DNA from: Clostridiales bacterium
Lineage (GTDB): Bacteria; Bacillota; DSM-16504; Desulfitibacterales; JAICDB01
Direction of reading: 5' to 3'
DNA length: 64,000 bases
Assembly: GCA_020063565.1 (NCBI GenBank)
Contig: JAICDB010000008.1
Coordinates: 39,914-103,913, forward strand
Of this stretch, positions 4,218 through 52,341 are shown piece by piece. Numbering within the stretch: position 1 is the stretch's first letter; every line of letters starts with the position of its first letter. A program made the translations under genes and the position numbers. The notes beneath the pieces were generated by a model. The model worked only from the letters and a program-made list of their open reading frames with translations. It had not been told where the DNA came from and did no database searches.

Positions 4218-4263
4218 ACTTACACCCATTGCATTATCAATCCCATTCGAGAGGATGATTCTT

Positions 4264-4899
4264 ATGTCGCTATCATTATCCATCTCTATTTTAAACCTTC
4301 CCGGGATGAAATTAAAGGGAATGAAACACGTTAACGAAAACAAAAATAATTAGTTCGTAAGAATCTCTGTCAGAGCAGATAAGCAGTATAGTGCTCGCTG
4401 TTCAAAATGTGGCTGTGTTGCTTCTGTTAACCGTTACGGCTTTCGAGAAGCTCGAGATACCGGAGCTTTTGGACAAGTAGTTTATCTTCACTTTGAACAA
4501 AGAGAAATCAATTGTCCTCATTGTGACATCAGGATAGAAAAACTAGACTTTATCAGTCCTGGTGCCAGAGAAACAAAATGTTTTGAAAAAAGCGTGGCGT
4601 TTCTTTGCCGGCATATGACAATCTCAGAAGTAGCTCAATACTTCAAGTTGTTCTGGAAAACTGTCAAGCGAATCGACAAAGACTATTTACTGCGGACCTT
4701 TGAGGAAATCAGCTTAGACGGCTTGCACGTTATCGGCTTTGATGAAGTTGCCAGAGCTATGTGGCATGACTATCTAACCTGTGTGTTTGATCTTAGAAAT
4801 AATCGCTTAATCCGAGCACTGAAAGGCGGCAAAGAAGTTTCAGTTGCTAAGTTCCACTTTGGATCTATTGCTTGTATCCCATCAATACATCCCGTTTAG
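4264..4899 (+). pseudogene. ISL3-family transposase remnant (in-frame TAG at 4351-4353, C-terminal DDE domain missing)
   Basis: A single reading frame gives MSLSLSISILNLPGMKLKG...(stop)...RCSKCGCV...INCPHCDIRIEKLDFISPGARETK...VKRIDKDYL...IGFDEVA...YLTCVFDL. That is the zinc-finger, HTH and start-of-DDE layout of ISL3 transposases. It covers only about 210 codons, whereas full-length enzymes have roughly twice that. Confidence 0.7.
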
Positions 4900-19675: not shown

Positions 19676-19873
19676 CTACTGCAATCCCCTTTCATTACCT
19701 TCTTTAAGTTCGTTCACCGGTACTTGCTTTTTCTCTTCAGGTGAATCTAGAAAAGAAATTTCTGCAGTTTTATTACCCGGGTTAAGGTTATGGATCCAAA
19801 TTTGTTCTTTGTTATACAATACTTCAATATTCTCCGGTGAATTGAGGATTTCTTCAGCTCTTTGATATTGCAT
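19676..19873 (-). CDS. sspH: small acid-soluble spore protein, H-type
   Basis: 65 aa: MQYQRAEEILNSPENIEVLYNKEQIWIHNL...KTAEISFLD...QVPVNELKE. This follows the SspH pattern (xRAxEIxxSxxxIxVxYxGxxIxIxxv...vPvxxLxE). Confidence 0.7.
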   Translation of the reverse strand: MQYQRAEEILNSPENIEVLYNKEQIWIHNLNPGNKTAEISFLDSPEEKKQVPVNELKEGNERGLQ

Positions 19874-28185: not shown

Positions 28186-29922
28186 CTATTTACAGGTATT
28201 TGAGCTGCAAGCAACTGTCGGTATTAAAATATCAGCCTTTTGTAGGACGGATATAACTGCAGTAAGGTTTATTTCGCATTTTAATTTATTGGTACCACTG
28301 GTTTTAAAGATACCCAATGTATTACCATCAGGACTACCAATATAGACACTTTTTGAAAGACCTAAATTTTCGCCGCCGGTAACTGACCAGCCAAACTGTG
28401 CCCAGGTTTTTTCTCCCGCCAGAACGCCCCAAATATTGCCGCTTTTGCTGGAAACAATATAGACCTTACCGGCAAAGCGTTCATTATTAGGAGAAGCGCT
28501 AGGGGCACCCAGCGCCAGGTCAGGCAGGCCATCGTTATCAAAATCACCTGCAGAGGATACAGATACCCCTACTTCTTCTCCGCTAACCGGACCTGCAAAA
28601 TGGAGTAGCTGGCTGCCATCCTTTCCCGAAAAAATATAGGCGGAACCTGCTTCCTTCCTTCCTCCGGGAGAACTGTTCGGAGCGCCAACCACTATTTCGG
28701 GAATTCCGTCGCCGTTAATATCATCTAGAGAATCTATTGAAAAACCGAGTCCCGCATTTTTCTCCGTACCTTGTATTGAGTAAATTAAATTTCCGCTCGC
28801 CCCGGAATAAACATAGACAATACCAGCCTGGTATATTCCTGAAGGTGACGCAAAGGGGGCTCCCACTACAAAGTCAGGAATACCGTCCCCGTCTATGTCT
28901 GCAATCTTTTTTACGGAGTAGCCGAAGGAATCATCTGGGTTTTGACCATCCAAACGGTAAAGAAGGCTGCCGGAGGTCCCGGAATAAACAAAAACGCTTC
29001 CGGCAGTAACTTTGCCCCCCGGAGAAGCTAAAGGGGCGCCTACGAGGATATCCGGAACCCCATCGCCATCCAGGTCCCCGGCCCAGCTTACCGACCAGCC
29101 AAACTGAGCTTCCGGTTCAGTGTTTTTAATTTCAAGGAGAGTTGTACCATCAAGACCTGATAAAACACGGATATAACCTGCCCGAAGCGCTGTACCAATC
29201 TTTGCACTTGGGGCGCCTGCCAGAATATCATTTAAACCGTCTCCATTTAAATCACAACCGGTAGCAAGGGAAAATCCCAAGTCATCTTCCGGAGCGGAAC
29301 CGTAGGCTTCAAAAAGTTTGTTTAAATTGGGATAAGAAAAGGCTGCCACTCGACCTGCATCTTCAATACTTCCAAAAGCTGCAGATGGAGAACCTACATC
29401 AATAGAAGCCGGATTGTTGTCAGTGGCAACAGCAAACCCAAACTGGTCGCCGGGTTGTTTTCCTTTAATTTGTATAAAATTTTCTCCGGGGGTAATGGTG
29501 CAATAGCAATAATCAGTGCATGTCTTAACCTGCAAGTCAAAGGAGCCTTCACCAGGTAAAGTAAGGTAGCAAAATAAAGAAAAGATGAGCTCTTTAGTAA
29601 AGGATTTGTCCCCCGTTGGGCAATGGATTGTAAATGCAAATGATTTGGCAATTTTTAAATATACACTATAAGCGCCGGGTTGCCAGGTCGGTTTGATATC
29701 TTGATAAATAATTTTTTCCGTACCGGGAAGGGGATTACAGTCTACAGTGCTGCAATCCAGGGAATTATAAAAAGGGAGTTCAAAAATGAACTCCTTTCTA
29801 ACTTTCTTATAACGGCTATCAATTACCCGATTTATGGAAATACATGTGATTTCATAGTCATTTGTAAAATTGCCAGAATAATTATTTGTATTTGTCTTTG
29901 CAATTGTTTGCATAGCGAGCAA
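28186..29922 (-). CDS. FG-GAP/integrin-alpha-like 7-blade propeller protein with Cys-rich N-terminal module, no signal peptide
   Basis: There are seven repeats of the type FGxSVxxxGDxxGDGxxDxxVGAP (for example FGWSVSWAGDLDGDGVPDILVGAP). The N-terminal ~170 aa are Cys-rich and there is a Cys-containing C-terminal tail. The start is 29922 (TTG) or 29913 (ATG). Confidence 0.85.
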   Translation of the reverse strand: MLAMQTIAKTNTNNYSGNFTNDYEITCISINRVIDSRYKKVRKEFIFELPFYNSLDCSTVDCNPLPGTEKIIYQDIKPTWQPGAYSVYLKIAKSFAFTIHCPTGDKSFTKELIFSLFCYLTLPGEGSFDLQVKTCTDYCYCTITPGENFIQIKGKQPGDQFGFAVATDNNPASIDVGSPSAAFGSIEDAGRVAAFSYPNLNKLFEAYGSAPEDDLGFSLATGCDLNGDGLNDILAGAPSAKIGTALRAGYIRVLSGLDGTTLLEIKNTEPEAQFGWSVSWAGDLDGDGVPDILVGAPLASPGGKVTAGSVFVYSGTSGSLLYRLDGQNPDDSFGYSVKKIADIDGDGIPDFVVGAPFASPSGIYQAGIVYVYSGASGNLIYSIQGTEKNAGLGFSIDSLDDINGDGIPEIVVGAPNSSPGGRKEAGSAYIFSGKDGSQLLHFAGPVSGEEVGVSVSSAGDFDNDGLPDLALGAPSASPNNERFAGKVYIVSSKSGNIWGVLAGEKTWAQFGWSVTGGENLGLSKSVYIGSPDGNTLGIFKTSGTNKLKCEINLTAVISVLQKADILIPTVACSSNTCK

Positions 29923-29965: not shown

Positions 29966-29992
29966 TAAAATATGTCGGAGCAGGTAAAATGT
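29966..29992 (-). promoter_or_regulatory. sigmaK-type promoter candidate (AC-N16-CATATTTTA)
   Basis: The reverse complement reads aagaACattttacctgctccgaCATATTTTA. The -10 element lies about 43 nt upstream of the FG-GAP start. Confidence 0.45.
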
Positions 29993-29994: not shown

Positions 29995-31554
29995 TTACTT
30001 AACCCATGGTACCAGGTTCGGCCTGGGGTCAAGAATTGATTGATACTGCTCTTTTATACCATAAATACTGTTCGGATCAAGTTTCTTGTAGCGGTAATAC
30101 TTTTTTAAACGGTCTGCAGGTTTCATCCAGCCAAGGTGCTTAATTCTTAAGTCGCTGTTTACGCCTTTTAGTTCAGTTATATTTTTGGGAAAACGCCCGC
30201 AGTGCTGGGGAGTTTCCCTCCAGAGATAGTTAAAATCGGGAACGTACCTGACCATGAAGGGACGGTACCACTTATGGGCATTCCAGTATGCATCCTCACG
30301 GTAATAATTTTCATCCCACATATCGTATAAACGGAAGGAATAATAGTAGATGTCAGGACGTTCTGCCAGTGATTTTAAAAGGTGCCGCGCCCTGTCTTCG
30401 AAAATTTCATCAGCATCTAAAATCAAGATCCAGTCAGGTTGAGTTTCTACTGTCATTTCCCAGAGCTGCTTTCTGAGTACTATTTCGTTGTTAAAGGACG
30501 GCTCTTTATTGGAGATTAGGGTCAGGGGAATACCTTTCAAAAGTTCCTTGCAAACTTCCACAGTATTATCCTCGCTGGCATCGTCCAGAATAACGGCATG
30601 ATCTATATATTGCAGAGCATGTTTGAGAACCATTTCCAGATACCTGTCAGCTTCATTTCTTACCAGCATGGATAGGGTAATTCTACTTCCTTTTTCCCTC
30701 TTTCCGTGCCCTGCAGGCTGATTTTCAATATTTCGACTATTCTTGTTAGCGGTCTCAACTGAAAAAATTTTTTCCTTGTATGCTTTAAGTTCTGACAGTT
30801 CAGACTCCCGGTAGATGTGAAATGGGGGATAATGGGTATCTGCAAAAAGCTCCAGTCCCAGTGCAGCGGCCCGAACGCAAAAGTGGCGGTCTTCACCTGC
30901 AAGGCTCAGATTATATATTTCACTAAAGGACACCCCCATGGAAAGCGCCTTTCTGCTTATCAAGGTACAGGCTCCCAAACCGCCTACCTTGTAGGTACCA
31001 GGTTTAGATAACATTTCCAAAAACTTATCTGCTCTCTTACGCTGTTCTTCTTGGTTTAAGGTTTCACCCCTCTTTGCATGATACAATTTGTAATCGTCGG
31101 AAATCCATACCTGCGGAAGCGGGAGCATACCCGGTATCCACCTGGTCCAGTAGACCTCCGAGACAATATCCTTACCAAGGGAGACTAGATGGGTAATTGT
31201 TTTGGGATGCAGGTACAGATCGGAATCTACCAGAAAAAGATAGTCATAACCTTCTTCAAGCGCCAGGGTGATAAAGCTGTTTTTAAATTCAGCTACCTTC
31301 CAAATTAGATCCTCGCGCCAGTAATGGGTGGACTCGTCACAAATATAACAGTCCTCTGATTTTGTCGGAAAAATATGGACATTTTCTTTACCCCGGGAAA
31401 AATTGGTGAGTAAATCATGGTCGTTATTATCGTCAATAAAAGCGAAATCCAGCACTAAATTAGTGGATTCCAACCTCTCAAGGGACTCCAAAAACTCCGC
31501 CAGAATTACTTCTTTCTGCCTGACGGGACTTGCTATAAGAACCCGTTTTTTCAT
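29995..31554 (-). CDS. two-domain glycosyltransferase (N-terminal GT-A-like + C-terminal GT2)
   Basis: 519 aa. The C-terminal half has ITLSMLVRNEADRYL...AVILDDASEDNT...ILILDADE. The N-terminal half has VLIASPVRQKE...FIDDNND...LFLVDSD. Confidence 0.8.
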   Translation of the reverse strand: MKKRVLIASPVRQKEVILAEFLESLERLESTNLVLDFAFIDDNNDHDLLTNFSRGKENVHIFPTKSEDCYICDESTHYWREDLIWKVAEFKNSFITLALEEGYDYLFLVDSDLYLHPKTITHLVSLGKDIVSEVYWTRWIPGMLPLPQVWISDDYKLYHAKRGETLNQEEQRKRADKFLEMLSKPGTYKVGGLGACTLISRKALSMGVSFSEIYNLSLAGEDRHFCVRAAALGLELFADTHYPPFHIYRESELSELKAYKEKIFSVETANKNSRNIENQPAGHGKREKGSRITLSMLVRNEADRYLEMVLKHALQYIDHAVILDDASEDNTVEVCKELLKGIPLTLISNKEPSFNNEIVLRKQLWEMTVETQPDWILILDADEIFEDRARHLLKSLAERPDIYYYSFRLYDMWDENYYREDAYWNAHKWYRPFMVRYVPDFNYLWRETPQHCGRFPKNITELKGVNSDLRIKHLGWMKPADRLKKYYRYKKLDPNSIYGIKEQYQSILDPRPNLVPWVK

Positions 31555-31602
31555 TACTATACTCCTCTCAACCAGGTTACCATAAAACTGCCCGTCGAAA
31601 AT

Positions 31603-33117
31603 TCACATAAGAAACGTCCCTGATGTGAATGCAAAAGGGCCGGGGGAGTACGATGGACAAAATTCTTTTATTAATAAAAGCAATGAATTTTCAACCAGGA
31701 TTTTTAAACGCTTTTTGACAGGAAAGAAACAAGAATCATACCCTTTTTCCATAAGCGCAGCAAATTTGTAAATCTCCTGTGCAGTTACAGAAAGGTATTC
31801 AAAAGATAAATATTTTTCCGATGAAAATTTTAGCAGGGAAATTGTCTCAGAATAGCTTGCACTTAACTGAAGCAAATTCTCACCCTGCTTATTGTCGGAA
31901 ATTACATCGTAGATGGACAGCAGCAGGATTATAAGAGCTAATGATATTTCGCCGGTGTTTACAAGTTCCCCTGAGATTTCTTTTTTTTTCTGTAGCGAAG
32001 TGAACCGGCTAAGTTTTTCAATTGATACAGAAAACTTGTCTCTTTGAATGAGGCCGATCAACTGCGTGAGAGGATATAGAAACCTGCTTGATTTCTTAAG
32101 GGCTCTTAAATAGGAGTTTTTAGCTTCAGTATAATTAGCGGATAAATTATATGCATCCCCTAGCAAGGAAAGTATTTTAAAATCCGGTAGGGCCTTGTTA
32201 CCTTCTTTTTCAAATGCACCATTTAAGTCTATAACTGCTTCCAAGTATTTTTTTGTGTTAAAGTTTCCTATGCCCTTTAATAAAAGCAGGTTAGGATTTT
32301 CAGGCAACATTTCCAGAGATTTGCTTGTGAAATCAATTAACCTTTCAATTCTGCCTAATTTCAATAAGCCCACTGCAATATTAAGAACAACATCCTCAAA
32401 ATAACCTTCAGTTCCATGCATACCACGAAGAGCCTTTTCTAGAGATTGAAGCCCTTCGGAAATCTTACCCTCCTGGTAATGCTCCACGGCAAGGCAATAT
32501 AAAAGGAAAGGGTTATTAGGATTGTTTTGTAATTCCTGATAAATAATTGTTTTATTGCGATTGAATTTATCCTTTTTCACAACCTGCGATTTCAAATAGC
32601 CATAATGCTCGATTACCAGGGGAGCTGTTTTCAAGCCACTTCCACCGTTCTCATTTAAAATTGCCGGCGCCACCTGCTCATGAATGGCTCCAGTAAATCT
32701 ATAGACCGGTTTGTTTCTAAAGAGTCTGACAACCCGGTCCCAGGTCACTTTTTGCCCTGTGCCCACATAGTTTTTAATATGCAGGTAATAACCTTCAACA
32801 TTGGTATCGGAGAGCAATTGCTTAAATTCTTCACTACCAACCGGAGCCAGAGTTTCGTCGGCATCAAGCACCATTATCCAGTCACAGTCAGCCTGTTCCA
32901 GGGCAAAATTTCTGGCCTCAGAAAAATCCCCCCTCCAGGTGAAATGAAACACCTTGGCTCCTGCTGCACCGGCAATGCTGGCTGTCTGATCGTGAGACCC
33001 CGTATCTACTACGATTATTTCATCTACAAGGTGCTTGACGCTGTTTATGCAGGATAAAATAAACTCTTCTTCATTTTTTACTATCAGGCACAGGCTTATA
33101 GTTTCCTTTTTAGCCAT
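31603..33117 (-). CDS. GT2 glycosyltransferase fused to TPR repeats
   Basis: ORF 31603..33129, with the likely ATG at 33117. It has ISLCLIVKNEEE...IIVVDTGSHDQT...IMVLDADE and a helical-repeat C-terminal half. It overlaps the upstream stop by 8 nt. Confidence 0.85.
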   Translation of the reverse strand: MAKKETISLCLIVKNEEEFILSCINSVKHLVDEIIVVDTGSHDQTASIAGAAGAKVFHFTWRGDFSEARNFALEQADCDWIMVLDADETLAPVGSEEFKQLLSDTNVEGYYLHIKNYVGTGQKVTWDRVVRLFRNKPVYRFTGAIHEQVAPAILNENGGSGLKTAPLVIEHYGYLKSQVVKKDKFNRNKTIIYQELQNNPNNPFLLYCLAVEHYQEGKISEGLQSLEKALRGMHGTEGYFEDVVLNIAVGLLKLGRIERLIDFTSKSLEMLPENPNLLLLKGIGNFNTKKYLEAVIDLNGAFEKEGNKALPDFKILSLLGDAYNLSANYTEAKNSYLRALKKSSRFLYPLTQLIGLIQRDKFSVSIEKLSRFTSLQKKKEISGELVNTGEISLALIILLLSIYDVISDNKQGENLLQLSASYSETISLLKFSSEKYLSFEYLSVTAQEIYKFAALMEKGYDSCFFPVKKRLKILVENSLLLLIKEFCPSYSPGPFAFTSGTFLM

Positions 33118-34867
33118 GAGTATTACCACCGATTTTGAATTTATAATTGAGAGAGCTCCTAACCCTACCCGCTTTATCCCGGTAAAATTCCAATAAGGTA
33201 AGATAACCCTGAGGTGACGTACTCTTAATAATAGATTTCAAATTAGCAGCTAATTGCAGAAGACGGGGATTTTGCCTTCCGTATTCGGGCAGATAGTAAT
33301 TGCATAAATTGAATATTTCCAAGGCAGGTGTTAGTAGTTCTTTTTCCCGTATTTTTTGGGGACAGTTTATGATCCCGTCCTTTTCCATCATGCGGGTTAA
33401 GTTTACCAATATCCACCCTTCGCACCTTGTCTCCTGGTTTCTCCATAATTTAAGCGCTAAAGATCTTCCTTCTGCAAAACGTTCCAGCAATAGGAGGGCA
33501 ATTGTTTGCAGAATTTGGGATTGGATATAAAACTTGCTTTCCACTGAAACCTGTTTCAGATGTTTTAAGCCCTGCTCTAACTTACCTGAAAAAATATTGT
33601 ATTGTCCCAAACAAAACCGCATTTCATCACAATTTTTTTTATCTGCTACTTCTTCCAGGGATAGACGGGCGAGACCCGGAAACCCGGAAGCAAAAAATAA
33701 ATTTGCAACCGGCAAAGCTAATTGGCTACTGCCCAGGTAGCCTTTCTCTTTTAAATATTTCAGCGTATGGCGGGCACCGCTTTTTGCCTTAAGTAGCAAA
33801 AAGAGATTGTAAATAGGAAAAGTATACTTGGGGTTAGCAGCCAGGGCTTGTTCATAATAATTTTGTGCTGCATTTGTTTGACCAAGCATTTCGTGACAGT
33901 ATCCCAGGTGGTAAAAGGCCAGAAAGCTTTCAGTTCCGTTCATGTGGCTGTAGAAAGGTGGTGGTGTTCCACACTTCACTGCCTGGTTAAACCACTTTAT
34001 GGCCAACTGTAACTCTTTCTTTTCCTCGAAAAGAATTCCACACAGGTAATAGATATCAGTATAGTCAGGATACTTCAGTTCTGCTTCCAGGCAGAGGCAA
34101 ATTGCTTCATCAAGTCTTCCTAAGGATTGCAGGCTAATAATCAAGTAACGTAAAGCCGGCGCCCGGAAGAAAAGGTTACTGTCGGTAATATTCCGATAGG
34201 CCTTCTCCAAGTACGGAAGCGCCTTACCGGGCTTTCCCAACATCAACCACTCGACCCCAAGGTAATATTCAAGAAAGTGGTTCTGGGGTTCCCTAGAGTA
34301 TGCTTTTTTCAGTAGAGATAGATTGCGCCCTCTTTTACGGTTGCGTTCCCCGGAAGGGAGCATTTTATGTTTTATAACAGGTCCAGCTGCCATCCTTAGC
34401 GCTTCTTTTTTAGTAATAACAATCTGTTCGTGAATTTTACCCTCAAATCTGTATTGCCCGTTATTTTTAAAGAGCCGAAGTACAAGAAAGCGGTTGTATT
34501 CACCGTTACCGTCAGCAGTAGGGTTATCAAGCGGTAGAAGATAGGCTTCCGTGCTTTTATCACGGGTTATAAGACCCTTTAAATCGCCGGTTTCGGCAGC
34601 TAATTCTTCATCAGCATCGAGGGACAAAATCCATTCACTACTTGCTTTCTCAATTGCAAAATTGCGAGCTGCACTGAAATCATCGTCCCAGGGGTACCGG
34701 TAAATCTTATTTGTAAACTTCCGGGCTATTTCCAGGGTACTATCTGTGGAACCGGTATCCACGATAACGATTTCGTCCACCTGGTGGCTTACACTGTCAA
34801 GGCAGGCCTGTAAATTTTCCTCTTCATTTTTTACGATCATTGCCAGAGTAATGGTACCTTCTTTCAT
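33110..34867 (-). CDS. GT2 glycosyltransferase fused to TPR repeats
   Basis: It has ITLAMIVKNEEENL...IVIVDTGSTDST...ILSLDADE followed by TPR-like repeats (YYLCGILFEEKKELQLAIKWFNQAV, YHLGYCHEMLGQTNAAQNYYEQALAANP). An ATGA overlap joins it to the upstream gene. Confidence 0.85.
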   Translation of the reverse strand: MKEGTITLAMIVKNEEENLQACLDSVSHQVDEIVIVDTGSTDSTLEIARKFTNKIYRYPWDDDFSAARNFAIEKASSEWILSLDADEELAAETGDLKGLITRDKSTEAYLLPLDNPTADGNGEYNRFLVLRLFKNNGQYRFEGKIHEQIVITKKEALRMAAGPVIKHKMLPSGERNRKRGRNLSLLKKAYSREPQNHFLEYYLGVEWLMLGKPGKALPYLEKAYRNITDSNLFFRAPALRYLIISLQSLGRLDEAICLCLEAELKYPDYTDIYYLCGILFEEKKELQLAIKWFNQAVKCGTPPPFYSHMNGTESFLAFYHLGYCHEMLGQTNAAQNYYEQALAANPKYTFPIYNLFLLLKAKSGARHTLKYLKEKGYLGSSQLALPVANLFFASGFPGLARLSLEEVADKKNCDEMRFCLGQYNIFSGKLEQGLKHLKQVSVESKFYIQSQILQTIALLLLERFAEGRSLALKLWRNQETRCEGWILVNLTRMMEKDGIINCPQKIREKELLTPALEIFNLCNYYLPEYGRQNPRLLQLAANLKSIIKSTSPQGYLTLLEFYRDKAGRVRSSLNYKFKIGGNTHG

Positions 34868-36834
34868 GTTACCGGTTCCTCCTCCGATAACTTCATGAAA
34901 ACCTTCATATCGGGGTATTTTTGCATGGCTTCCTGTAAAATTTTTTTGCGCTTGTTATCGTATAAGTTGATTAGCCTGATATAATAACGTGGTACATTGC
35001 TATTTATTTCCAATGCCCGCCGGTAATTTTGTTCTGCTTGATAATAATTATCTGTTTCTTGATAAATTTCAGCCAGGAGATAATATGTTTCAGCATCAGC
35101 GGTAGCAGTTAAATATTCTTTTAACAACTCTTTTGTTTTTTCCTTATAACCGTAGTCATAAAAGAGCTGAGCAATGTTTAGCTTGTGTTCAGTCAAACTT
35201 TCGGGATTGACCATGTTCAAGAGGCGCTCTACCTTATCTGTTTCATCCATATCAAGCAATCTTTTTACTATATCAAGCAGAAGATCCATTCCATCATTCC
35301 CGAGGGTTACGGCTGAAACACCTTTCTTATCCAGCACATCTACAAGAAGCTTTAATACTTTTTCCGTATCCTCCGCCAGGCCAAAGGAACAGAACTCTCC
35401 AAAAAGAGCACGTACTCTCTTCTTATTATCCTGGAGCCAAAAGCAAAACAACTGGTTAAACTTTGCAAGAGGGTAGAGATAGCTCTCAGAAGTGAACTCC
35501 TCAATAATTCTCAGCGCTTCCAGGTATCTTCGTTCTTGAATCAGACAAATGATTTTTCGCAGTTTAATTTCGGGGGAAGCAGTTTTATTTTTTGTGCCTT
35601 TTTCAAGATATTCCAGAGCAAGCTTATAGGCTCCCTGCCGAAAGAAGATATCACCCATAATTAGGTTGGCCCTGGCAGTACAAAATTCAAATACCTTTTC
35701 CAGGCATTCAACTGTATATTCAGGGTTTTCACGGGGATTAAGGATACGTACTATATTTTCCAGGGCAGGTGTAAATTCCGGGTTGTCACGCAAACTTGCC
35801 ATGTAGTACCTAATGGCATCTTCATACTTTAAAAAAGTTTCTGCTATTTGTCCCAGGTAGTAGAACGATCTAAATCCCCTTACACCGGCAAAAGAAGCAT
35901 ACTGGGCGGGTTGTTCCGGCATTGAAACCGCCTTTTGAAAAGAGTCGCTGGCATTGGCGTACTGCCTCAATTCTAAATAAAGCAACCCTGCATAGTAATA
36001 AAGGTCTGCATAATTGGGAAAGTGTTGTAGGCCAAGCTGGACAATAGCGAGCGCCCTATCCGGCTGCCCTGCGGACTGGTGAGACATGACAATATACCTT
36101 AAAAGTTTTGGAAGGTAAATAGTATTGGGGTCTATACCGTTTGCCGCTCGAGTCAATTCCCTGGCTGCCTCTGCATATCTTTCGGCACGGAAAAGCTCAA
36201 CGCCGTAATGATACCTTAATAACTTGTTTTCCGGTTTTTGTGCAAGTTCCCTTTCAATTATTTTCAGGTTTCTTTCTTTTTTATTTTTTTCATTTATTTG
36301 CCTGTCTAGATAACCATAATGGACGACTACTATCTCTTCAGCTATTTTATAAGCGGCAGTGTTGTTCTTTTCCAGAATAACATCAGCTATTTGCTCGTGA
36401 ATAGCCCCGCGAAATCTATAATCACGCCTGTTTCTAAAAAGACGAAAGATTAAATCGGGACAGGTTTCAATCCATCCTTCGTTGCCAATATAGTTGATGA
36501 CCTTGATAAAATAACCTTCTACACTATCGTCAGTCACCAGACTTCGCAGCGCTTCCTTACTTTCTTTTGCCAGTTCTTCGTCGGCATCCAGAAACAAGAT
36601 CCAATCTCCGGTAGCAAGCTCCAAGGAAGCGTTCCGAGCATCACTAAAATTTTCATTCCAGCAAAAAGACTGGATTTTTGCTCCAAATTCACGGGCTATT
36701 TGACAGGTATTGTCAGAAGAACCTGTATCAACAACAATTATTTCATCCACCACATCGGCTACGCTACTCAGACATCTGCGGATGTTTTGCTCTTCATCCT
36801 TGATAATCATACATAAACTGATTGAGGTATCCAT
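34864..36834 (-). CDS. GT2 glycosyltransferase fused to TPR repeats
   Basis: It has ISLCMIIKDEEQNI...IIVVDTGSSDNT...ILFLDADE followed by about 400 aa of TPR-like repeats (YYLLAEIYQETDNYYQAEQNYRRALEINS). Confidence 0.85.
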   Translation of the reverse strand: MDTSISLCMIIKDEEQNIRRCLSSVADVVDEIIVVDTGSSDNTCQIAREFGAKIQSFCWNENFSDARNASLELATGDWILFLDADEELAKESKEALRSLVTDDSVEGYFIKVINYIGNEGWIETCPDLIFRLFRNRRDYRFRGAIHEQIADVILEKNNTAAYKIAEEIVVVHYGYLDRQINEKNKKERNLKIIERELAQKPENKLLRYHYGVELFRAERYAEAARELTRAANGIDPNTIYLPKLLRYIVMSHQSAGQPDRALAIVQLGLQHFPNYADLYYYAGLLYLELRQYANASDSFQKAVSMPEQPAQYASFAGVRGFRSFYYLGQIAETFLKYEDAIRYYMASLRDNPEFTPALENIVRILNPRENPEYTVECLEKVFEFCTARANLIMGDIFFRQGAYKLALEYLEKGTKNKTASPEIKLRKIICLIQERRYLEALRIIEEFTSESYLYPLAKFNQLFCFWLQDNKKRVRALFGEFCSFGLAEDTEKVLKLLVDVLDKKGVSAVTLGNDGMDLLLDIVKRLLDMDETDKVERLLNMVNPESLTEHKLNIAQLFYDYGYKEKTKELLKEYLTATADAETYYLLAEIYQETDNYYQAEQNYRRALEINSNVPRYYIRLINLYDNKRKKILQEAMQKYPDMKVFMKLSEEEPVT

Positions 36835-37001: not shown

Positions 37002-37826
37002 ATGCCAAACTTTAAGATTTTCCAGGATACTCCCGACCAGGCGAAGGTAAAAATCTATGGTAGCAATGATGTTGCATTTAACACTGACTCATCCGGTAAC
37101 CTGACAATTACCTCAACCGGCCTGGCAATTACAGCGCCTGCCAATGGTCTAAGCATCACCAGCACCGGGTTGGCAATAACAGCGCCAGCCAACGGGTTGA
37201 CAGTTACAGCGCCAGCATCCGGCCTATCCATTACTCCACCAAGCGGTGGACTATCTATAACACCGCCAACTAGTGGTCTGACTATTACCAGCACCGGGCT
37301 ATCAGTAACGGCGCCGGCCAACGGATTAACGGTTACAGCGCCGGCATCCGGCCTATCCATTACTCCGCCAAGCGGAGGATTGTCTATTACGCCACCGACT
37401 AACGGTTTAAGCATTACCAGCACAGGCCTTGCAATTACGGCGCCAACAAATGGGCTCACTGTAACTGCATCTTCTGATGGTTTGAAAGTTGCAACGGCCA
37501 CTACTGATGTCTCGGCCACCAGGGCTAACGTTACTGACACTGCAGGTACTCCCGATACAACTTACAACGTACTGGGTTATAAGACCTGGACCTTCGGTGT
37601 TGTAAATGCTTCAACTGCAACAGATGCCCAGGCGCTTGTCAAACTTCAAATCAGCCCTGACGGTACCAACTGGCAGGACGAAGTAAGTTCGGTAACAATT
37701 AACCAGAATTCTTTAGCAACATTTGTGTCTTCGATATTCTTAAAATATGCCAGAATTTACTACAGTGCTGTTAACGCAAGTAGTGCAGTAACTTTGAACA
37801 TCTTCTTCCAGGGGCAATCTGACTAA
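37002..37826 (+). CDS. Thr/Ser-rich repeat protein: short N-terminus, 15 x (7- or 9-residue xxxGLx[IV]) repeats, beta-rich C-terminal domain
   Basis: 274-aa ORF with the strong RBS AAAGGGGGG and no signal peptide. The repeats alternate TSTGL[AS][IV] and T[AP]PxxGL[ST][IV]. The C-terminal ~110 aa are non-repetitive. A terminator lies at 37877-37906. Confidence 0.8.
   Translation: MPNFKIFQDTPDQAKVKIYGSNDVAFNTDSSGNLTITSTGLAITAPANGLSITSTGLAITAPANGLTVTAPASGLSITPPSGGLSITPPTSGLTITSTGLSVTAPANGLTVTAPASGLSITPPSGGLSITPPTNGLSITSTGLAITAPTNGLTVTASSDGLKVATATTDVSATRANVTDTAGTPDTTYNVLGYKTWTFGVVNASTATDAQALVKLQISPDGTNWQDEVSSVTINQNSLATFVSSIFLKYARIYYSAVNASSAVTLNIFFQGQSD
37083..37490 (+). repeat. coding tandem repeat array (21/27-nt units; higher-order 129-nt unit at 37158-37286 and 37287-37415)
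   Basis: The two 129-nt (43-codon) blocks encode TSTGL..TAPANGLTVTAPASGLSITPPSGGLSITPPT.GL.I and differ mostly at synonymous or near-synonymous positions. Confidence 0.9.
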
Positions 37827-37907: not shown

Positions 37908-39494
37908 TTATGGACCCAATCTATCTGTCACTTGCTTCACTTCTTCAGCATAATTAATTTCTTTGAGATTTTCTATGGTTTCCTCAAAAATATTTTTATT
38001 ACTAGCGGTTTCTTCAGCTAGATTACTATTTTTATTTACTTCATTCTCGCTGTTTTCCTTAGATTTCCTTTCCTTGGATTCATTCGATGCACTGCCGGTG
38101 GCTTTCACCTCTTCTTTTTGACACTTTTTTTCTAAAGGATTTGTATTTGCCCAAAAAGTGCTCTTTAAAATCATATTTGTATTCCTTTTATCCATAGACA
38201 TGGGTATTTCAGATAAACCATTGGGTCGGAAAATATTTTTTGCAAAGTGATATTGTACTTGTTTATTAGGTGGTAAGGTTTCTAGAGGATTGCCGGAATA
38301 ACTTTGTGTATCGTGTGCAAACTGAAAAACCGGTACGTCTCCCGGAACAGATAGGGGATCATAATTTGACCTGTGCTGGCGAGTGATTTTTTTTGTAGCA
38401 ATATTCTTTGCACGTATGTTTCTTTTTTGCGGCGCTGCTTGTTTTTTGGTTAGCGCTGTATTTTTAATTTGTATTGTAGGATTTTCCCGGTGACCAGTTT
38501 CCGTTTCCTCTTGGGGTAGCCTTATTTCCTGCTCATTTTTTGTTTCAACGCTTTTTTGAAGTTGCTGTTCGCTAGTTTGCCCTTCAAGCATTTTTGGAGC
38601 ATCGTTTGTTACTGTCATGTCATCATCTCTTACCTGTATATTTTCCTCATGCTGTGTTTCCATTTCAGCTACGGTTTGATTTTCCGGTTTTTCCTGTGAA
38701 TCATCTTCTTGAGCAGTTGGTGTTGTTTTGCTGTTAGAGATGAATCTTTTTATTGATTTAAGTTTTTTAAGGGATGCAATTTTTCTATTTTCTTCATTTT
38801 GCCTGTTAACTTCAGCTTTTATTTCTGAATATATTTCTTTTACCAAACTTACTATAATTTTGGTATCTTCTTTAGTTAAAGTCTTCTTATAATGTTCAAC
38901 AATACTGGAGGTTATTATGTTCTGAAATTTATCCCGTAAGTCTTTTAACTGTTCAAAATTGCTCAATTCAATTAACACAGTAGGTGTTGGCGAGTTAAAA
39001 AAGTACTGCCAGTATTTTACGTTAGTTACATAATCCCACCAGGATGCAACAGAATAGTTAATATTAAGGTCAGCCCTTGCAATTTTTTTGATAATTTTTG
39101 AGGCTAAGCTTGTAGCGCTATTGGAACTTTTTGAAGTAAAAAATTTTATGGTATTATAGTCTGTCGTGTAATTATTGTTGGAAAAACAAAGAATTATCTG
39201 TGCGTCAAGAAATTTTATTGCTTGCGAGCTCATATGTTTGTTGCTGACAAGGCATATTGCATCATGCCTTATAAGTTCCTCTTTTATGGAATTTGCCATT
39301 TCAGTAATGATTTCAACATTATCAAGTAGTTGTATTAAAATTGTTTTGCCGGTCAGGGGAGGAACGAGTTGCAAGTCACCGTTTTCCGCAATCTTATAAT
39401 TTATATCCAATAAATCACAGTTTTCTTGAAACTTTTGTAATAAGTCTTCTTCCAATGTAAGAACCGTATTATCGGCAAGTTTCACATTGATCAT
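37908..39494 (-). CDS. hypothetical 528-aa protein: N-terminal degenerate Amidase_3-like domain (tentative) + long E/K/Q/N-rich low-complexity region
   Basis: RBS GGAGGG. The N-terminal ~220 aa align by eye to the MurNAc-LAA fold (AQIILCFSNNN vs ADLFxSIHxNA; PTVLIELSNFEQ vs PAVLVExGFxSN) but lack the Zn ligands. No signal peptide. Confidence 0.7.
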   Translation of the reverse strand: MINVKLADNTVLTLEEDLLQKFQENCDLLDINYKIAENGDLQLVPPLTGKTILIQLLDNVEIITEMANSIKEELIRHDAICLVSNKHMSSQAIKFLDAQIILCFSNNNYTTDYNTIKFFTSKSSNSATSLASKIIKKIARADLNINYSVASWWDYVTNVKYWQYFFNSPTPTVLIELSNFEQLKDLRDKFQNIITSSIVEHYKKTLTKEDTKIIVSLVKEIYSEIKAEVNRQNEENRKIASLKKLKSIKRFISNSKTTPTAQEDDSQEKPENQTVAEMETQHEENIQVRDDDMTVTNDAPKMLEGQTSEQQLQKSVETKNEQEIRLPQEETETGHRENPTIQIKNTALTKKQAAPQKRNIRAKNIATKKITRQHRSNYDPLSVPGDVPVFQFAHDTQSYSGNPLETLPPNKQVQYHFAKNIFRPNGLSEIPMSMDKRNTNMILKSTFWANTNPLEKKCQKEEVKATGSASNESKERKSKENSENEVNKNSNLAEETASNKNIFEETIENLKEINYAEEVKQVTDRLGP

Positions 39495-39524: not shown

Positions 39525-39552
39525 TATAATATGTAGACAGTATTAAAAATGT
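39525..39552 (-). promoter_or_regulatory. sigmaK-type promoter candidate (AC-N17-CATATTATA)
   Basis: The reverse complement reads tataACatttttaatactgtctaCATATTATA. The -10 element lies 30 nt upstream of the ATG at 39494. Confidence 0.5.
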
Positions 39553-40919: not shown

Positions 40920-41240
40920 ATGAGTAGGTACCCTAAAATTGAGAATTTAGTAAGAAAAAGTCAGCAACATCCGGGAATAGGTATAATAAATAATCCTCAA
41001 ATAAAACATGTTTATCTGTTCATTGATAATATGCTTTCAAAAAGGGATTATTCAACTATTGAAAAGGAACTAAACAACAATCCGGGAATAAGGGGCACTA
41101 AAATATTTGCTCCTAAAAAAATTAAGGTTTCATATGATTCTTCAATAACAGGACTTGAAAATATTTTTTATACTTTAATAACAATTGGTTATCCTGTCAG
41201 CAACAAAAATATACCTCAAGGACAAAAAAGCAAGGGATGA
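40920..41240 (+). CDS. HMA-fold-like protein lacking the CxxC metal site (paralogue 1)
   Basis: 106 aa with the RBS GGGAGG. The core VYLFIDNMLSKRDYSTIEKELNNNPGIRGTKIF...KVSYDSSITGLENIFYTLITIGYPV mirrors the ferredoxin-like HMA pattern, with MxSxxD in place of MxCxxC. Confidence 0.55.
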   Translation: MSRYPKIENLVRKSQQHPGIGIINNPQIKHVYLFIDNMLSKRDYSTIEKELNNNPGIRGTKIFAPKKIKVSYDSSITGLENIFYTLITIGYPVSNKNIPQGQKSKG

Positions 41241-41289
41241 TGTGGTAAATAGCAAGCAGTTGGTTTGCAAAAAGATGGGAGGAATCGAA

Positions 41290-41595
41290 GTGAGTTGGTA
41301 CCAAACAAATGATAAAGCGCCACATCGAAACAATACAAGTACTTTTTACAAAAAAGCTCATACAGAAAAAATCCAAAGTTCCGTAAGTTTCAACTTAACA
41401 ATTCTGGATATGGTTTCAGAAAAAGATTATCAGATTATCTCTGAAAGTTTGTTTAAATTACCCGGGATAGTGAGTATTAAGCCATACCAGCAACCTAATA
41501 AGTTAACTGTTACCTATAACCCTTATCTGGCAACTTTGGAGCAGCTTGTTTTTAATATATCAAAACTTGGCTACCATTACGTAAATCGTGCTTGA
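41290..41595 (+). CDS. HMA-fold-like protein lacking the CxxC metal site (paralogue 2)
   Basis: ORF 41185..41595. The likely GTG at 41290 follows the RBS GGGAGG and gives MSWYQ..., parallel to MSRYP... of paralogue 1. The core is FNLTILDMVSEKDYQIISESLFKLPGIVSIKPY...LTVTYNPYLATLEQLVFNISKLGYH. Confidence 0.55.
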   Translation: MSWYQTNDKAPHRNNTSTFYKKAHTEKIQSSVSFNLTILDMVSEKDYQIISESLFKLPGIVSIKPYQQPNKLTVTYNPYLATLEQLVFNISKLGYHYVNRA

Positions 41596-41603: not shown

Positions 41604-42566
41604 TTAGAGGCCTGGCAGGCCTTGTGAAAATTCAATTAAATCATTTAAGTGCAAAGGCAGCGCTGGTTTTAGTTCCTTGTCATTGATTCTTTTTAAGACA
41701 ATATACGGTGAAATCTCTCCATTTTGATATTTTACTTCATCAAAACGTAATAGAAAAGGTGTTTCTTTGGAAACTATTCCTCGCCATTTATGGCCTTTAT
41801 CAGCTGAAGTAAATAATATTAACCTTTTATTTTTCGTGCCAAATAAACCTAGTTGATTTTTGTCCTTTAAGAGAAGCGGTTGTCTTTCAAAGGGAAAAGT
41901 TTTTGAAGTAACAATTGGGGAATGTAATATTATCCTGTCGTCTTTAAACAAAAAATAATTTAAGTTAACGAAGTCAGAAGCTTTTTCAGCTGCTATTAGG
42001 TGCCAGTTACAGTGTGATAAGCTAATTTTTGTAAAAAATACTCGTTTCAGACAAACAAGTAATTTGCCCCGTGACCACTTACCATTCTCAAGACTATAAT
42101 TCCAGGCAATGAGGTTATTATTTTGAAGTAATATCAACTGTAACATTTTCTGTGATTGTGTTCTATGCAGGCTTAGTATCTCACTTCCGGAGAAGGGGGT
42201 GATTGGTAAAACCGATATCTTCCATGAACTGTCACTAAAACTGATGTGAAGGTATTTATTGGTTTGAGAAGCTACTATATGGCATTCATTTTGAAGGGTG
42301 GTAACTAGATAATCCTTTATTTCCGTTAACTCGTGTAGAATTTTCATTTTCCAGTGGTTATTGTTCCAATAGTAAAGGCTTAAAATTCCATGGGAATTTT
42401 TGAGTATAATGTAGGGAATTAAGTTTTTGCTCCAAACCACTTTATAATCAACAACATCTTCTAAAGAATTTCCTGCAATATTAAGTTCAAAATGAAATTT
42501 TTTACTATCCGATATTGTAAATGACCAGTAATCTCCTGTTTCATTATTTAAAAAAATTGTAATCAA
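41604..42566 (-). CDS. hypothetical beta-rich protein with one Asp-box (SADKGHKW), propeller-like
   Basis: ORF 41604..42602. The likely TTG at 42566 follows the RBS AAGGGGGGTG. The protein is rich in W/Y/beta-strand patterning and has no signal peptide. Confidence 0.6.
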   Translation of the reverse strand: MITIFLNNETGDYWSFTISDSKKFHFELNIAGNSLEDVVDYKVVWSKNLIPYIILKNSHGILSLYYWNNNHWKMKILHELTEIKDYLVTTLQNECHIVASQTNKYLHISFSDSSWKISVLPITPFSGSEILSLHRTQSQKMLQLILLQNNNLIAWNYSLENGKWSRGKLLVCLKRVFFTKISLSHCNWHLIAAEKASDFVNLNYFLFKDDRIILHSPIVTSKTFPFERQPLLLKDKNQLGLFGTKNKRLILFTSADKGHKWRGIVSKETPFLLRFDEVKYQNGEISPYIVLKRINDKELKPALPLHLNDLIEFSQGLPGL

Positions 42567-42672
42567 AAACACCCCCCTTAAATTTTGGGTAAACATGAAC
42601 ACTTTATCTTTTTTAAAATAGTATATATTAGATTAAAAAATATATTACTATCAATTTAAAGGAGGAATAAGG

Positions 42673-43296
42673 ATGTCAGATCAAACTAGCCAACAGCAGG
42701 TACAGCCTGGACGGTGCCCTGATGGAGTATGCCCGCCTTTTGATCGCATTGAATGTATAGTGGTGGATAAAGTTTATGACAGTTGTTTTCAGATTGAAAA
42801 TGTTGACAGAACTAGTGAAATTACTACCGGGCCTTACGGTGAATTTGAAACAGGGCCTTTTGCTGTGGGAGATACGGTACAGTGTATGTTAACTCCGGGT
42901 AAAGAAATAACTTGCAGGGAAATCAGCCGTACAGCAGCGGGAGATGGATTTTTCACCATTACGATAGTTGCAACTGTTCCTGTAACCCTAATTAATCCTA
43001 ACAATCCTAATGAAACTTCAGAAAAAGAATTTACATTTACCAAAACTGTAACACTGTGCTGTCCTCAGGGAGTTTCTCCTGACTGCAGTGAAAGTACTTT
43101 GCTGCACTGTGTATGTGTAGTTAGTGAAGTAGAAGCAGACGAAATTGAAGTGACCTGTGACTTGCAAATATGTTTAGTTATCAAGTGTATACTCAGAGTT
43201 CAGTTACTGGTTCCCAGCTATGGTTTCTGTGTGCCTGCACCTTGTATCACTATTCCTGGTGTGTGCCCACCACTGCCACCGGAACAGTGTTTCTAG
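42673..43296 (+). CDS. Cys-rich 207-aa protein (17 Cys; Cys/Pro-rich N- and C-termini), unknown family
   Basis: RBS AAAGGAGG. N-terminus GRCPDGVCPP...ECIVVDKVYDSC, C-terminus FCVPAPCITIPGVCPPLPPEQCF. No signal peptide. Terminator at 43311-43338. Confidence 0.75.
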   Translation: MSDQTSQQQVQPGRCPDGVCPPFDRIECIVVDKVYDSCFQIENVDRTSEITTGPYGEFETGPFAVGDTVQCMLTPGKEITCREISRTAAGDGFFTITIVATVPVTLINPNNPNETSEKEFTFTKTVTLCCPQGVSPDCSESTLLHCVCVVSEVEADEIEVTCDLQICLVIKCILRVQLLVPSYGFCVPAPCITIPGVCPPLPPEQCF

Positions 43297-44893: not shown

Positions 44894-44921
44894 TAAACTA
44901 TGATGATGAATGGCCATTAGT
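44894..44921 (-). promoter_or_regulatory. sigmaK-type promoter candidate (AC-N17-CATAGTTTA)
   Basis: The reverse complement reads ttgtcACtaatggccattcatcatCATAGTTTA. The -10 element lies 46 nt upstream of the ATG at 44847. Confidence 0.45.
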
Positions 44922-52194: not shown

Positions 52195-52341
52195 CTCTAA
52201 ATCACTCCGTTCTTAATTATTTAGCAAAAATTCAAGCGCCTTATTTTATCATATGAATTCTAAGGCTATTTGTTTAGTATCAGATAGAAAAATAAAATCA
52301 TATGATATTATGACAGAGCTATATTATGGAGGGGATATTTA

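What the first reader, a model, noticed from the sequence alone, without database searches (positions are those of the whole stretch)
28186..29922. Leaderless 7-blade FG-GAP propeller whose Cys-rich N-terminal module is paralogous to the 207-aa Cys-rich protein 13 kb away
**FG-GAP protein.** It has no hydrophobic N-terminus, although FG-GAP/integrin-alpha propellers are normally extracellular.

**Shared module.** Its first ~170 residues align by eye with the core of the protein at 42673-43296:

| FG-GAP protein | 207-aa protein |
|---|---|
| ITCISINRVIDS | IECIVVDKVYDS |
| CNPLPGTEKI | CMLTPGKEI |
| TIHCPTGDKSFTKELIFSLFCYLTLPG | TLINPNNPNETSEKEFTFTKTVTLCCPQG |

Cysteine clusters follow in both proteins.

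**Interpretation.** A shared Cys-rich module in two leaderless proteins of one locus suggests a common assembly or anchoring domain. It may be disulfide cross-linked, as in exosporium basal-layer or appendage proteins.
Basis: partly seen in the sequence, partly recalled or inferred. Interest (0 to 1): 0.65.

Follow-up and report, generated by a model that had tools for sequence, protein, structure and literature searches.

The report
Integrin-like propeller inserted in spore-envelope module
A leaderless protein of a spore-forming Clostridia bacterium carries a seven-bladed, calcium-binding integrin-type propeller spliced into a loop of a beta-sheet module that is a distant relative of the neighbouring 207-residue cysteine-rich spore-envelope-type protein, which suggests that the module sits in the spore's outer layers and displays the propeller; this is a moderately interesting new variant of a known kind.

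Summary

**The two genes**
- 28186-29922 (-) encodes a 7-blade FG-GAP propeller with no signal peptide.
- 42673-43296 (+) encodes an 18-Cys, 207-aa protein. It is a sub-threshold relative of the BMQ_0737 spore-coat family.

**Homology**
- Pairwise similarity between the two is not significant.
- A profile of 14 orthologues of the FG-GAP protein matches the 207-aa family colinearly at P = 3e-6 over 153 columns. Column shuffles never exceed half that score.
- The match needs two pieces: residues about 21-144 and the last about 35 residues. The propeller is therefore an insertion before the module's final long strand, not a C-terminal fusion.
- The two AlphaFold models have the same order of strands, and five cysteines align.

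**Context**
- Orthologues lie in protein-glycosylation loci (DUF6385 repeat protein plus GT2-TPR enzymes) or nonulosonic-acid loci.
- In Thermanaerosceptrum fracticalcis the two genes are adjacent.

**Most likely reading**
- The protein is probably a mother-cell-made spore-envelope component whose scaffold module displays the propeller.
- Spore localisation, disulfide cross-linking and the propeller's ligand are inferred, not shown.
- Verdict: new variant of a known kind, of moderate interest.

The parts
28186..29922 (-). Gene for the FG-GAP fusion protein. It is 578 aa from TTG 29922. The likely true start is ATG 29913, which gives 575 aa (= P0121).
   Evidence: The ORF is listed. The identical 575-aa product occurs in public metagenomes. 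Fifteen full-length orthologues were found.
29491..29862 (-). N-terminal part of the split beta module (residues about 21-144). It has one 26-residue first strand and five further strands.
   Evidence: hhalign against the 207-aa family gives P = 1.5e-4 alone, over 120 columns. AF2 pLDDT is 77-94. Cys27, 62, 139 and 141 align with Cys28, 71, 146 and 148 of the 207-aa protein.
28303..29478 (-). Seven-bladed FG-GAP (integrin-alpha type) beta-propeller (residues about 149-540). It has five DxDxDG calcium-loop motifs and is inserted into the module.
   Evidence: Pfam PF01839 hits at E = 4.8e-45. The calcium-loop motifs are at residues 224, 283, 342, 401 and 460. The model shows 7 x 4 strands. Foldseek matches integrin alpha heads at E about 1e-20.
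28189..28302 (-). C-terminal part of the split module (residues about 541-578). It contains one 25-residue last strand, LKCEINLTAVISVLQKADILIP.
   Evidence: It aligns with residues 157-184 of the 207-aa protein at P = 2e-3 alone. Adding it improves the spliced match to P about 3e-6. It is conserved in all 15 full-length orthologues. AF2 models it as strand 543-567 (575-aa numbering) with pLDDT 85-91.
42673..43296 (+). Gene for the 207-aa protein with 18 Cys. It is the stand-alone paralogue of the module and a distant relative of the BMQ_0737 spore-coat family. It has a strong Shine-Dalgarno sequence (AAAGGAGG).
   Evidence: The AF2 model has pLDDT 86.
29966..29992 (-). SigK-like promoter motif (AC-N16-CATAnnnTA), 44 nt upstream of the TTG. 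This is a weak hint only.
   Evidence: The same strict motif lies upstream of the orthologues in L004 and L008. Overall the motif is not enriched in the window (11 observed against 8.9 expected).
29995..36834 (-). Four glycosyltransferase genes directly upstream on the same strand: one double GT2 and three GT2-TPR.
   Evidence: Pfam results are. The best NCBIfam match is the SunS-type peptide glycosyltransferase, below its threshold. The genes are syntenic in orthologous loci.
37002..37826 (+). Gene for a DUF6385 protein with Thr/Ser/Pro-rich 43-aa tandem repeats. It is a candidate glycosylated surface fibre and is conserved next to the FG-GAP fusion gene.
   Evidence: It appears in the contexts.

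Best explanation
**Architecture (shown)**
- The gene encodes a domain-insertion protein. Its scaffold is a beta-sheet module homologous to the neighbouring 207-aa cysteine-rich protein, which is a relative of the BMQ_0737 family of outer spore-layer morphogenetic proteins.
- A seven-bladed, calcium-loop-bearing integrin-type propeller is spliced into the turn before the module's last long strand.
- The protein has no leader.
- It belongs to a small orthologous family in spore-forming Bacillota, embedded in protein-glycosylation or nonulosonic-acid loci.

**Mechanism (inferred)**
- The protein is made in the mother cell late in sporulation, so it needs no secretion signal.
- The scaffold module keeps the long first and last strands that the 207-aa family would use for oligomerisation or lattice formation. 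It would therefore be built into, or dock onto, the layer formed by the 207-aa protein.
- The propeller would project from that layer as a binding head.
- Its most likely ligand is the glycan or the repeat region of the co-encoded DUF6385 glycoprotein, which would tether a surface nap or glycan coat. An external ligand (adhesion) is the alternative.
For: **Homology and split topology**
- The orthologue profile matches the 207-aa family at P = 2.7e-6 and 3.4e-6, probability 88%, over 153 colinear columns covering residues 22-184 of 207.
- The best of 150 column shuffles scored 21.1 against 44.3 observed.
- In HMMER searches the two ORFs are each other's best non-self hit among window ORFs. The hits are colinear and in two pieces.
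- Strand/non-strand agreement of the two AF2 models along the alignment is 82%, against 50-62% when shifted by 5 or more.
- Five Cys align.

**Insertion site**
- The same loop carries insertions of +24 aa and +9 aa in stand-alone family members P0009 and P0082.

**Spore link**
- NF052457 (BMQ_0737) hits at E = 8.7e-10, and 42 of 47 family members hit it.
- BMQ_0737 is outermost and surface-exposed on B. megaterium spores (PMC4656864).
- Cys-rich lattice-forming envelope proteins are an established principle in Clostridia (bioRxiv 10.64898/2026.09.03.749163).
- sspH scores above its cut-off in the window.
- No family member has a signal peptide.

**Context**
- DUF6385 plus GT2-TPR genes lie next to the fusion gene in 5 of 8 loci, including 37%-identical orthologues. 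Nonulosonic-acid (NeuB) genes lie next to it in 2 of 8.
- In T. fracticalcis the order is DUF6385 gene, fusion gene, 207-aa gene, all adjacent.

**Promoter**
- A sigK-like motif lies upstream in 3 of 8 loci.
Against: - There is no expression, localisation or proteomic evidence for either protein.
- The curated BMQ_0737 model does not detect the spliced module. The 207-aa protein scores below that model's cut-off (39 against 71 bits). The link to a characterised spore protein is therefore transitive.
- Foldseek of the 207-aa model against the PDB found nothing.
- The 207-aa gene lies within 10 kb of the fusion gene in only one of the other loci examined.
- One orthologue sits next to gas-vesicle genes with no sugar genes in view.
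- The sigK-like motif is no more frequent than chance in the window.
- The fusion lacks the Cys/Pro-rich tails, so covalent incorporation is doubtful.
Confidence: 0.55

Rival explanations
1. The fusion is a cytoplasmic accessory of the glycosylation machinery, not a structural spore component. The propeller would act as a lectin or scaffold that holds the DUF6385 substrate or sugar intermediates for the GT2-TPR enzymes. The module would mediate oligomerisation only.
For: - The protein is leaderless.
- Its most consistent neighbours are cytoplasmic glycosyltransferases and sugar-nucleotide enzymes.
- It lies on the same strand as, and 72 nt downstream of, a GT2 gene.
Against: - The module's only detectable relatives are a family tied to outer spore layers.
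- Calcium-loop integrin-type propellers are typically binding heads on surfaces (and general knowledge).
- The nearest propeller relatives outside the family are large Planctomycetota FG-GAP proteins.
Confidence: 0.2
2. The fusion is a spore or cell adhesin for external ligands such as mineral, host or biofilm matrix. Its linkage to the glycosylation locus would be only a matter of co-regulation.
For: - The propeller is integrin-like with five calcium loops.
- The module is a relative of a spore-surface family.
- One orthologue lies outside any sugar locus.
Against: Linkage to DUF6385/GT2-TPR or NeuB loci is conserved in 7 of 8 contexts, down to 37% identity. That argues for a functional tie to the glycan or glycoprotein.
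Confidence: 0.15
3. The similarity between the module and the 207-aa protein is chance or compositional, arising from Cys- and beta-rich sequence. The two proteins would be unrelated.
For: - Pairwise BLASTP is not significant.
- Single-sequence hhalign gives P = 0.049.
- HMMER profile-to-sequence hits are only E = 0.04.
- The curated BMQ_0737 model finds nothing in the module.
Against: - The profile-profile comparison gives P about 3e-6 with full-length colinearity. It is about 12 sd above the column shuffles.
- The independent C-terminal piece aligns at the expected place.
- The order and lengths of the strands match.
- Five Cys align.
Confidence: 0.07

Closest known systems
BMQ_0737 family morphogenetic spore coat protein (NCBIfam NF052457; Bacillus megaterium QM B1551)
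   Same: - The 207-aa protein aligns with the model nearly end to end (residues 28-206 against model positions 2-193 of 199) at E = 8.7e-10, and 42 of 47 of its family members hit it.
- BMQ_0737 lies in the outermost spore layers and is needed for their integrity (title of Manetsberger et al. 2014 and localisation data cited in PMC4656864).
   Different: - The score of 39 bits is well below the curated 71-bit cut-off, so this is a sister family in Clostridia and Moorella-type lineages, not an equivalog.
- The FG-GAP fusion's module is not detected by the model at all. It is linked only through the 207-aa family.
Cysteine-rich SPOCS/DUF3794-domain spore-envelope lattice proteins (CsxA, CsxC, CdeC; Fisher et al., bioRxiv 10.64898/2026.09.03.749163)
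   Same: - The 207-aa protein is a small, all-beta, very Cys-rich protein of Clostridia (18 Cys in 207 residues) with disordered Cys/Pro-rich termini.
- UniRef names two members of its family as SPOCS or DUF3794 domain-containing.
- The long terminal strands suit the strand-exchanged oligomers described for CsxA and CsxC.
   Different: - Pfam's DUF3794 model hits none of 47 members.
- The fold could not be compared.
- No CsxA-type protein is reported with a propeller or any large domain inserted. That paper contains no mention of propeller, FG-GAP or integrin.
Integrin alpha-chain / bacterial FG-GAP (PF01839) beta-propellers
   Same: - It is a seven-bladed propeller with DxDxDG calcium hairpins.
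- Foldseek gives E about 1e-20 to alphaV, alphaIIb and alpha5 heads.
   Different: - It is leaderless and is inserted within another domain rather than sitting at the N-terminus of a secreted or membrane protein.
- It has five calcium loops.
- Its nearest non-family relatives are roughly 960-990-aa Planctomycetota proteins, matching over the propeller only.
Anchoring of the BclA nap to the exosporium basal layer in the Bacillus cereus group (ExsFA/BxpB with ExsY/CotY). Recalled from general knowledge, used as a functional analogy only.
   Same: - In concept, a basal-layer scaffold plus an adaptor holds a repetitive glycoprotein fibre.
- Here the candidates are the 207-aa protein, the propeller fusion and the DUF6385 repeat protein, with dedicated glycosyltransferases alongside.
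   Different: - There is no sequence relationship. No collagen-like repeats or CotZ/ExsY domains were detected.
- The analogy is untested.

Membership tests
FG-GAP / integrin-alpha beta-propeller (Pfam PF01839) | Pfam FG-GAP repeats above the gathering score | tested here: met
   The score is 151 bits against a cut-off of 22.1, at E = 4.8e-45, in five stretches.
FG-GAP / integrin-alpha beta-propeller (Pfam PF01839) | Seven four-stranded blades, superposable on integrin alpha heads | tested here: met
   The AF2 model (pLDDT 86) has 28 blade strands. Foldseek gives E = 6e-21 and TM 0.68-0.70, normalised to the target.
FG-GAP / integrin-alpha beta-propeller (Pfam PF01839) | Calcium-binding DxDxDG hairpin loops | tested here: met
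   Five motifs lie at residues 224, 283, 342, 401 and 460. They are conserved in orthologues. Metal binding itself was not tested.
Secreted or surface-anchored bacterial FG-GAP proteins | N-terminal Sec or lipoprotein signal peptide | tested here: not met
   There is no hydrophobic h-region before the first conserved strand in any of 16 members. The frame cannot extend upstream.
BMQ_0737 family (NCBIfam NF052457), for the 207-aa protein | Score at or above the curated cut-off of 71 bits | tested here: not met
   The score is 39.1 bits at E = 8.7e-10, although the alignment is full-length. The best family member reaches E = 4e-12. The protein is related to the family but lies outside it.
BMQ_0737 family (NCBIfam NF052457), for the module of the FG-GAP protein | Any match of the model to the spliced module | tested here: not met
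   No match was found in nine spliced orthologue modules at E up to 10.
207-aa Cys-rich family of this window (alignment A1) | Colinear profile-profile match over the whole beta core | tested here: met
   P = 2.7e-6 and 3.4e-6, probability 88%, over 153 columns.
207-aa Cys-rich family of this window (alignment A1) | Conserved Cys/Pro-rich N- and C-terminal tails (PGxCPxxxCPP... and ...CVPAPCxxxPGxCPPxPPxQCF) | tested here: not met
   The tails are absent from the FG-GAP protein and its orthologues. The fusion is a divergent offshoot, not a member.
SPOCS / DUF3794 domain (Pfam PF12673) | Match to the Pfam model | tested here: not met
   None of 47 members of the 207-aa family hits it at E up to 1, and none of four hits it at E up to 10. 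There is also no hit in the FG-GAP protein. Even so, UniRef names two members SPOCS or DUF3794.
SPOCS / DUF3794 domain (Pfam PF12673) | Beta-barrel of two three-stranded sheets, with strand-exchanged trimer | not testable with these tools
Endospore appendage (Ena, DUF3992) and CotY/ExsY-type Cys-rich proteins | Match to the respective Pfam models | tested here: not met
   No such families appear among the Pfam hits at E up to 1 for either protein.
Disulfide-cross-linked spore lattice protein | Self-assembly and intermolecular disulfides | not testable with these tools
   The only evidence is composition: 18 Cys in 207 residues, 16 of them invariant or nearly so across the family.

The most novel reading that the evidence does not exclude
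The fusion protein is a built-in subunit of the exosporium or outer-coat lattice, co-assembling with the 207-aa Cys-rich protein through the shared strand-exchange module. Its calcium-dependent, lectin-like propeller captures the glycosylated DUF6385 repeat protein. That would be a previously undescribed way of anchoring a spore-surface glycoprotein nap in Clostridia, functionally analogous to ExsFA/BxpB-BclA in Bacillus but unrelated to it.
Probability: 0.2. Interest if true: 0.7.

Novelty: new variant of a known kind. Interest (0 to 1): 0.5.

Why it matters
- Spore-envelope layers in Clostridia are only now being resolved, and their known building blocks are small Cys-rich beta proteins that crystallise into lattices.
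- A member of such a scaffold family with a complete integrin-type binding propeller grafted into a surface loop would show that these scaffolds can display functional heads.
- It would also give a concrete, testable candidate for how surface glycoproteins or glycans are tethered in lineages that lack the Bacillus BclA/ExsFA system.
- The insertion-tolerant loop could be useful for spore-surface display.
- The family is absent from Pfam and NCBIfam. It is annotated only as 'integrin alpha chain', 'FG-GAP' or 'VCBS repeat protein', which hides the spore link.

Tried and rejected
**Searches and comparisons that gave little or nothing**
- A word-indexed homologue search with the N-terminal 177 residues alone found nothing.
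- The exhaustive representative search found only the protein itself and one truncated 30%-identical relative, because the closer orthologues fall in the same 50% cluster.
- Two scans of representative genomes with module patterns found no confirmed relative. One alignment was too divergent to give patterns.
- The curated BMQ_0737 model against spliced modules gave no hit.
- Pfam DUF3794/SPOCS against the 207-aa family gave no hit.

**Ideas tested and set aside**
- A hidden upstream signal peptide is rejected. The frame closes 24 codons upstream, next to the preceding gene's stop.
- The sigK-type promoter motif is present upstream of the gene and of two orthologues, but it is not enriched in the window (11 observed against 8.9 expected). 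I keep it only as a hint.

**Literature**
- No paper combines FG-GAP with exosporium or spore coat, and none mentions DUF6385.
- The T. fracticalcis genome paper says nothing about sporulation or this gene.
- The BMQ_0737 primary paper is not held.

**Other**
- The DUF6385 protein has no relative with a solved structure.
Full report
**What is at the coordinates**

The minus-strand ORF 28186-29922 encodes 578 aa from a TTG. Public gene callers start three codons later at ATG 29913, which gives an identical 575-aa product found on five metagenome contigs. The frame closes 24 codons upstream of the TTG, beside the stop of the preceding glycosyltransferase gene, so no leader can be hidden upstream.

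- Pfam gives FG-GAP at E = 4.8e-45.
- Five D-x-[DN]-x-[DN]-G-x-x-[DE] calcium-loop motifs are present.
- An AlphaFold2 model built on 16 family sequences has mean pLDDT 86 and shows 7 x 4 blade strands.
- Foldseek matches integrin alpha-chain heads at E about 1e-20 and TM 0.68-0.70, normalised to the target.

None of the 16 family members has a signal peptide. In several the first conserved strand begins 6-9 residues after Met. The '7-blade' and 'leaderless' parts of the observation are therefore confirmed.

**The 207-aa protein**

The gene at 42673-43296 (+) has a strong Shine-Dalgarno sequence and encodes a protein with 18 Cys in 207 residues.

- It belongs to a large, well-conserved family: 164 hits at 50-70% identity, from Moorella, Alkaliphilus, Natronincola, Zhaonella, Desulfitobacteriia and many Clostridia MAGs.
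- No Pfam family matches any of 47 members.
- NCBIfam NF052457, 'BMQ_0737 family morphogenetic spore coat protein', aligns nearly end to end at E = 8.7e-10. The score is 39 bits against a cut-off of 71, and 42 of 47 members hit the model. This is a sister family, not an equivalog.
- BMQ_0737 lies in the outermost, antibody-accessible layers of B. megaterium spores. The primary paper's title says it is crucial to their integrity (PMC4656864).
- The AF2 model has pLDDT 86. It is all-beta, with a 27-residue first strand and a 25-residue last strand, and low-confidence Cys/Pro-rich tails at both ends.

**Is the shared module real?**

On single sequences it is not significant:
- BLASTP gives E = 0.05-5.6.
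- hhalign with one sequence gives P = 0.049, and with two sequences P = 0.016.

A full-length search then recovered 15 orthologues that share both the N-terminal region and a conserved C-terminal tail. They are 37-63% identical and include Thermanaerosceptrum fracticalcis BR63_01660. With their profile against the 207-aa family:
- The N part (residues 21-153) gives P = 1.5e-4 over 120 columns.
- The C-terminal 38 residues on their own align with residues 157-184 of the 207-aa protein at P = 2e-3.
- The two spliced together give P = 2.7e-6 (my run) and 3.4e-6 (the comparison tool), probability 88%. The 153 colinear columns cover residues 22-184 of 207.
- 150 column shuffles of the query gave scores of 13.7 +/- 2.5 with a maximum of 21.1, against 44.3 observed. 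The reversed query scored 14.2.

In HMMER searches of all window ORFs, each protein is the other's best non-self hit, again colinear and in two pieces. The strand elements of the two AF2 models correspond one to one. Strand/non-strand agreement along the alignment is 82%, against 50-62% when the register is shifted by 5 or more. Five cysteines align: 27/28, 62/71, 139/146, 141/148 and 549/162.

**What this changes**

The module is not an N-terminal domain followed by a propeller. It is a split domain. The chain leaves the module after its penultimate strand, forms the whole propeller, and returns for the final 25-residue strand. A short strand just before blade 1 probably closes blade 7. In the 207-aa protein that position is a 3-residue turn.

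Stand-alone family members carry smaller insertions in the same turn: +24 aa in P0009 and +9 aa in P0082. P0102 and P0106 carry an unknown 115-aa insert in the loop after strand 1. The scaffold therefore tolerates loop insertions.

The fusion lacks the Cys/Pro-rich tails of the 207-aa family. Only Cys27 and Cys101 are invariant among its orthologues.

**Context**

The window comes from a 37% G+C endospore former. An H-type SASP gene scores above its cut-off at 19676-19873.

- Directly upstream of the fusion gene, on the same strand, lie a double-GT2 gene and three GT2-TPR genes. Their best match is the SunS-type peptide glycosyltransferase, below its threshold.
- Next comes a divergent gene for a DUF6385 protein with Thr/Ser/Pro-rich 43-aa tandem repeats.
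- After that lie a CAP/YkwD-like gene, several unknowns and the 207-aa gene.
- GDP-mannose and other sugar-nucleotide genes and GT4 genes follow.

The linkage is conserved:
- DUF6385 plus GT2-TPR genes flank the fusion gene in 5 of 8 loci, including orthologues only 37% identical.
- Nonulosonic-acid (NeuB) genes flank it in two more loci.
- One locus shows gas-vesicle genes instead.
- In T. fracticalcis the order is DUF6385 gene, fusion gene, 207-aa gene (68% identical to the window's), all adjacent.
- The 207-aa gene is not within 10 kb in the other loci.

A sigK-type motif (AC-N16-CATAnnnTA) lies 44 nt upstream of the gene. The same motif lies upstream of two orthologues and of four other genes of the 28-57 kb sugar locus. 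It is not more frequent than chance overall, with 11 observed against 8.9 expected.

**Mechanism**

- Shown: the split-domain architecture, the homology to the 207-aa family, the absence of a leader, the integrin-type propeller, and the conserved glycosylation context.
- Inferred: synthesis in the mother cell; incorporation into or docking onto an outer spore layer through the scaffold module; outward display of the propeller.
- Speculative: the ligand. The co-encoded DUF6385 glycoprotein or its glycan is my first choice, because of the conserved linkage. Adhesion to an external ligand is the second.

A recent preprint shows that Cys-rich SPOCS-fold proteins (CsxA, CsxC) build crystalline, probably disulfide-linked exosporium and parasporal lattices through strand-exchanged trimers (bioRxiv 10.64898/2026.09.03.749163). 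The 207-aa protein looks like that class in its composition, all-beta fold and long terminal strands, and UniRef labels two of its family members SPOCS or DUF3794. However, the Pfam model does not hit it, and I could not compare folds.

**Novelty and verdict**

- No Pfam or NCBIfam model covers the module, and the fusion is annotated only as an integrin, FG-GAP or VCBS protein.
- No paper in the library links FG-GAP with spore coat or exosporium, and none mentions DUF6385. The CsxA/CsxC preprint mentions no propeller.
- I file this as a new variant of a known kind: a loop-insertion derivative of a Cys-rich spore-envelope scaffold family.
- Confidence is about 0.85 for the homology and architecture, and about 0.55 for the spore-envelope display model as a whole.
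- Interest is 0.5. It is a clean, testable structural idea in a poorly known system, but it is not a new principle and it has no functional data.

Noticed in passing
window 37002-37826 (+); tandem repeat 37146-37445: The DUF6385 protein has an N-terminal region of 129-bp (43-aa) Thr/Ser/Pro-rich tandem repeats (ITSTGLAITAPANGLTVTAPASGLSITPPSGGLS...). The T. fracticalcis orthologue is 68% identical but differs by whole repeat units. The layout resembles a BclA-like fibre (repeats plus a C-terminal globular domain) and makes it a likely glycosylation substrate. No paper mentions DUF6385.
   Followed up: partly
window 29995-36834 (-): Four consecutive glycosyltransferase genes: one with two GT2 domains and three GT2-TPR fusions. 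Their best NCBIfam match is the SunS family peptide S-glycosyltransferase (106 bits, below the cut-off of 350). This suggests direct protein glycosylation in the cytoplasm.
   Followed up: partly
proteins P0102 and P0106 (relatives of window 42673-43296): Two 325-aa members of the 207-aa family carry a 115-residue insert of unknown fold in the loop after the first strand. P0105 has an N-terminal (EQRIEQQ)n repeat. P0009 and P0082 have short inserts at the propeller-insertion loop.
   Followed up: partly
window 29966-29992, 39525-39552, 44894-44921, 52247-52273, 56817-56843 (all -): SigK-like AC-N16/17-CATAnnnTA motifs lie 20-115 nt upstream of five genes of the 28-57 kb surface-glycan locus: the FG-GAP fusion, a 528-aa unknown, phosphomannomutase and two GT4 genes. 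The overall count in the window is not above chance.
   Followed up: partly
window 19676-19873 (-): An H-type small acid-soluble spore protein gene (TIGR02861, 62.9 bits against a cut-off of 47.9). It shows that the organism is an endospore former.
   Followed up: yes
window 41604-42602 (-), 37908-39494 (-), 40920-41240 (+), 41185-41595 (+): Several genes without any family assignment lie between the DUF6385 gene and the 207-aa gene. A 344-aa protein next to the 207-aa gene in T. fracticalcis is weakly similar to the 332-aa one here (21% identity, E = 2e-4). The two small overlapping ORFs show only faint MerTP-like similarity.
   Followed up: partly
locus L006 (GCA_021787335.1), 252-2437 and 2603-4471: The most divergent full-length orthologue (P0200, 38% identity) sits directly after gas-vesicle genes (GvpL/F, GvpK, GvpA) rather than sugar genes. 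It also has a 50-residue C-terminal extension.
   Followed up: no
proteins P0002 and P0074 (MAG locus tags PWP31_408 and PWP31_409): Two members of the 207-aa family are encoded by adjacent genes on one 88-kb contig. Tandem paralogues of the scaffold therefore exist in some genomes.
   Followed up: no
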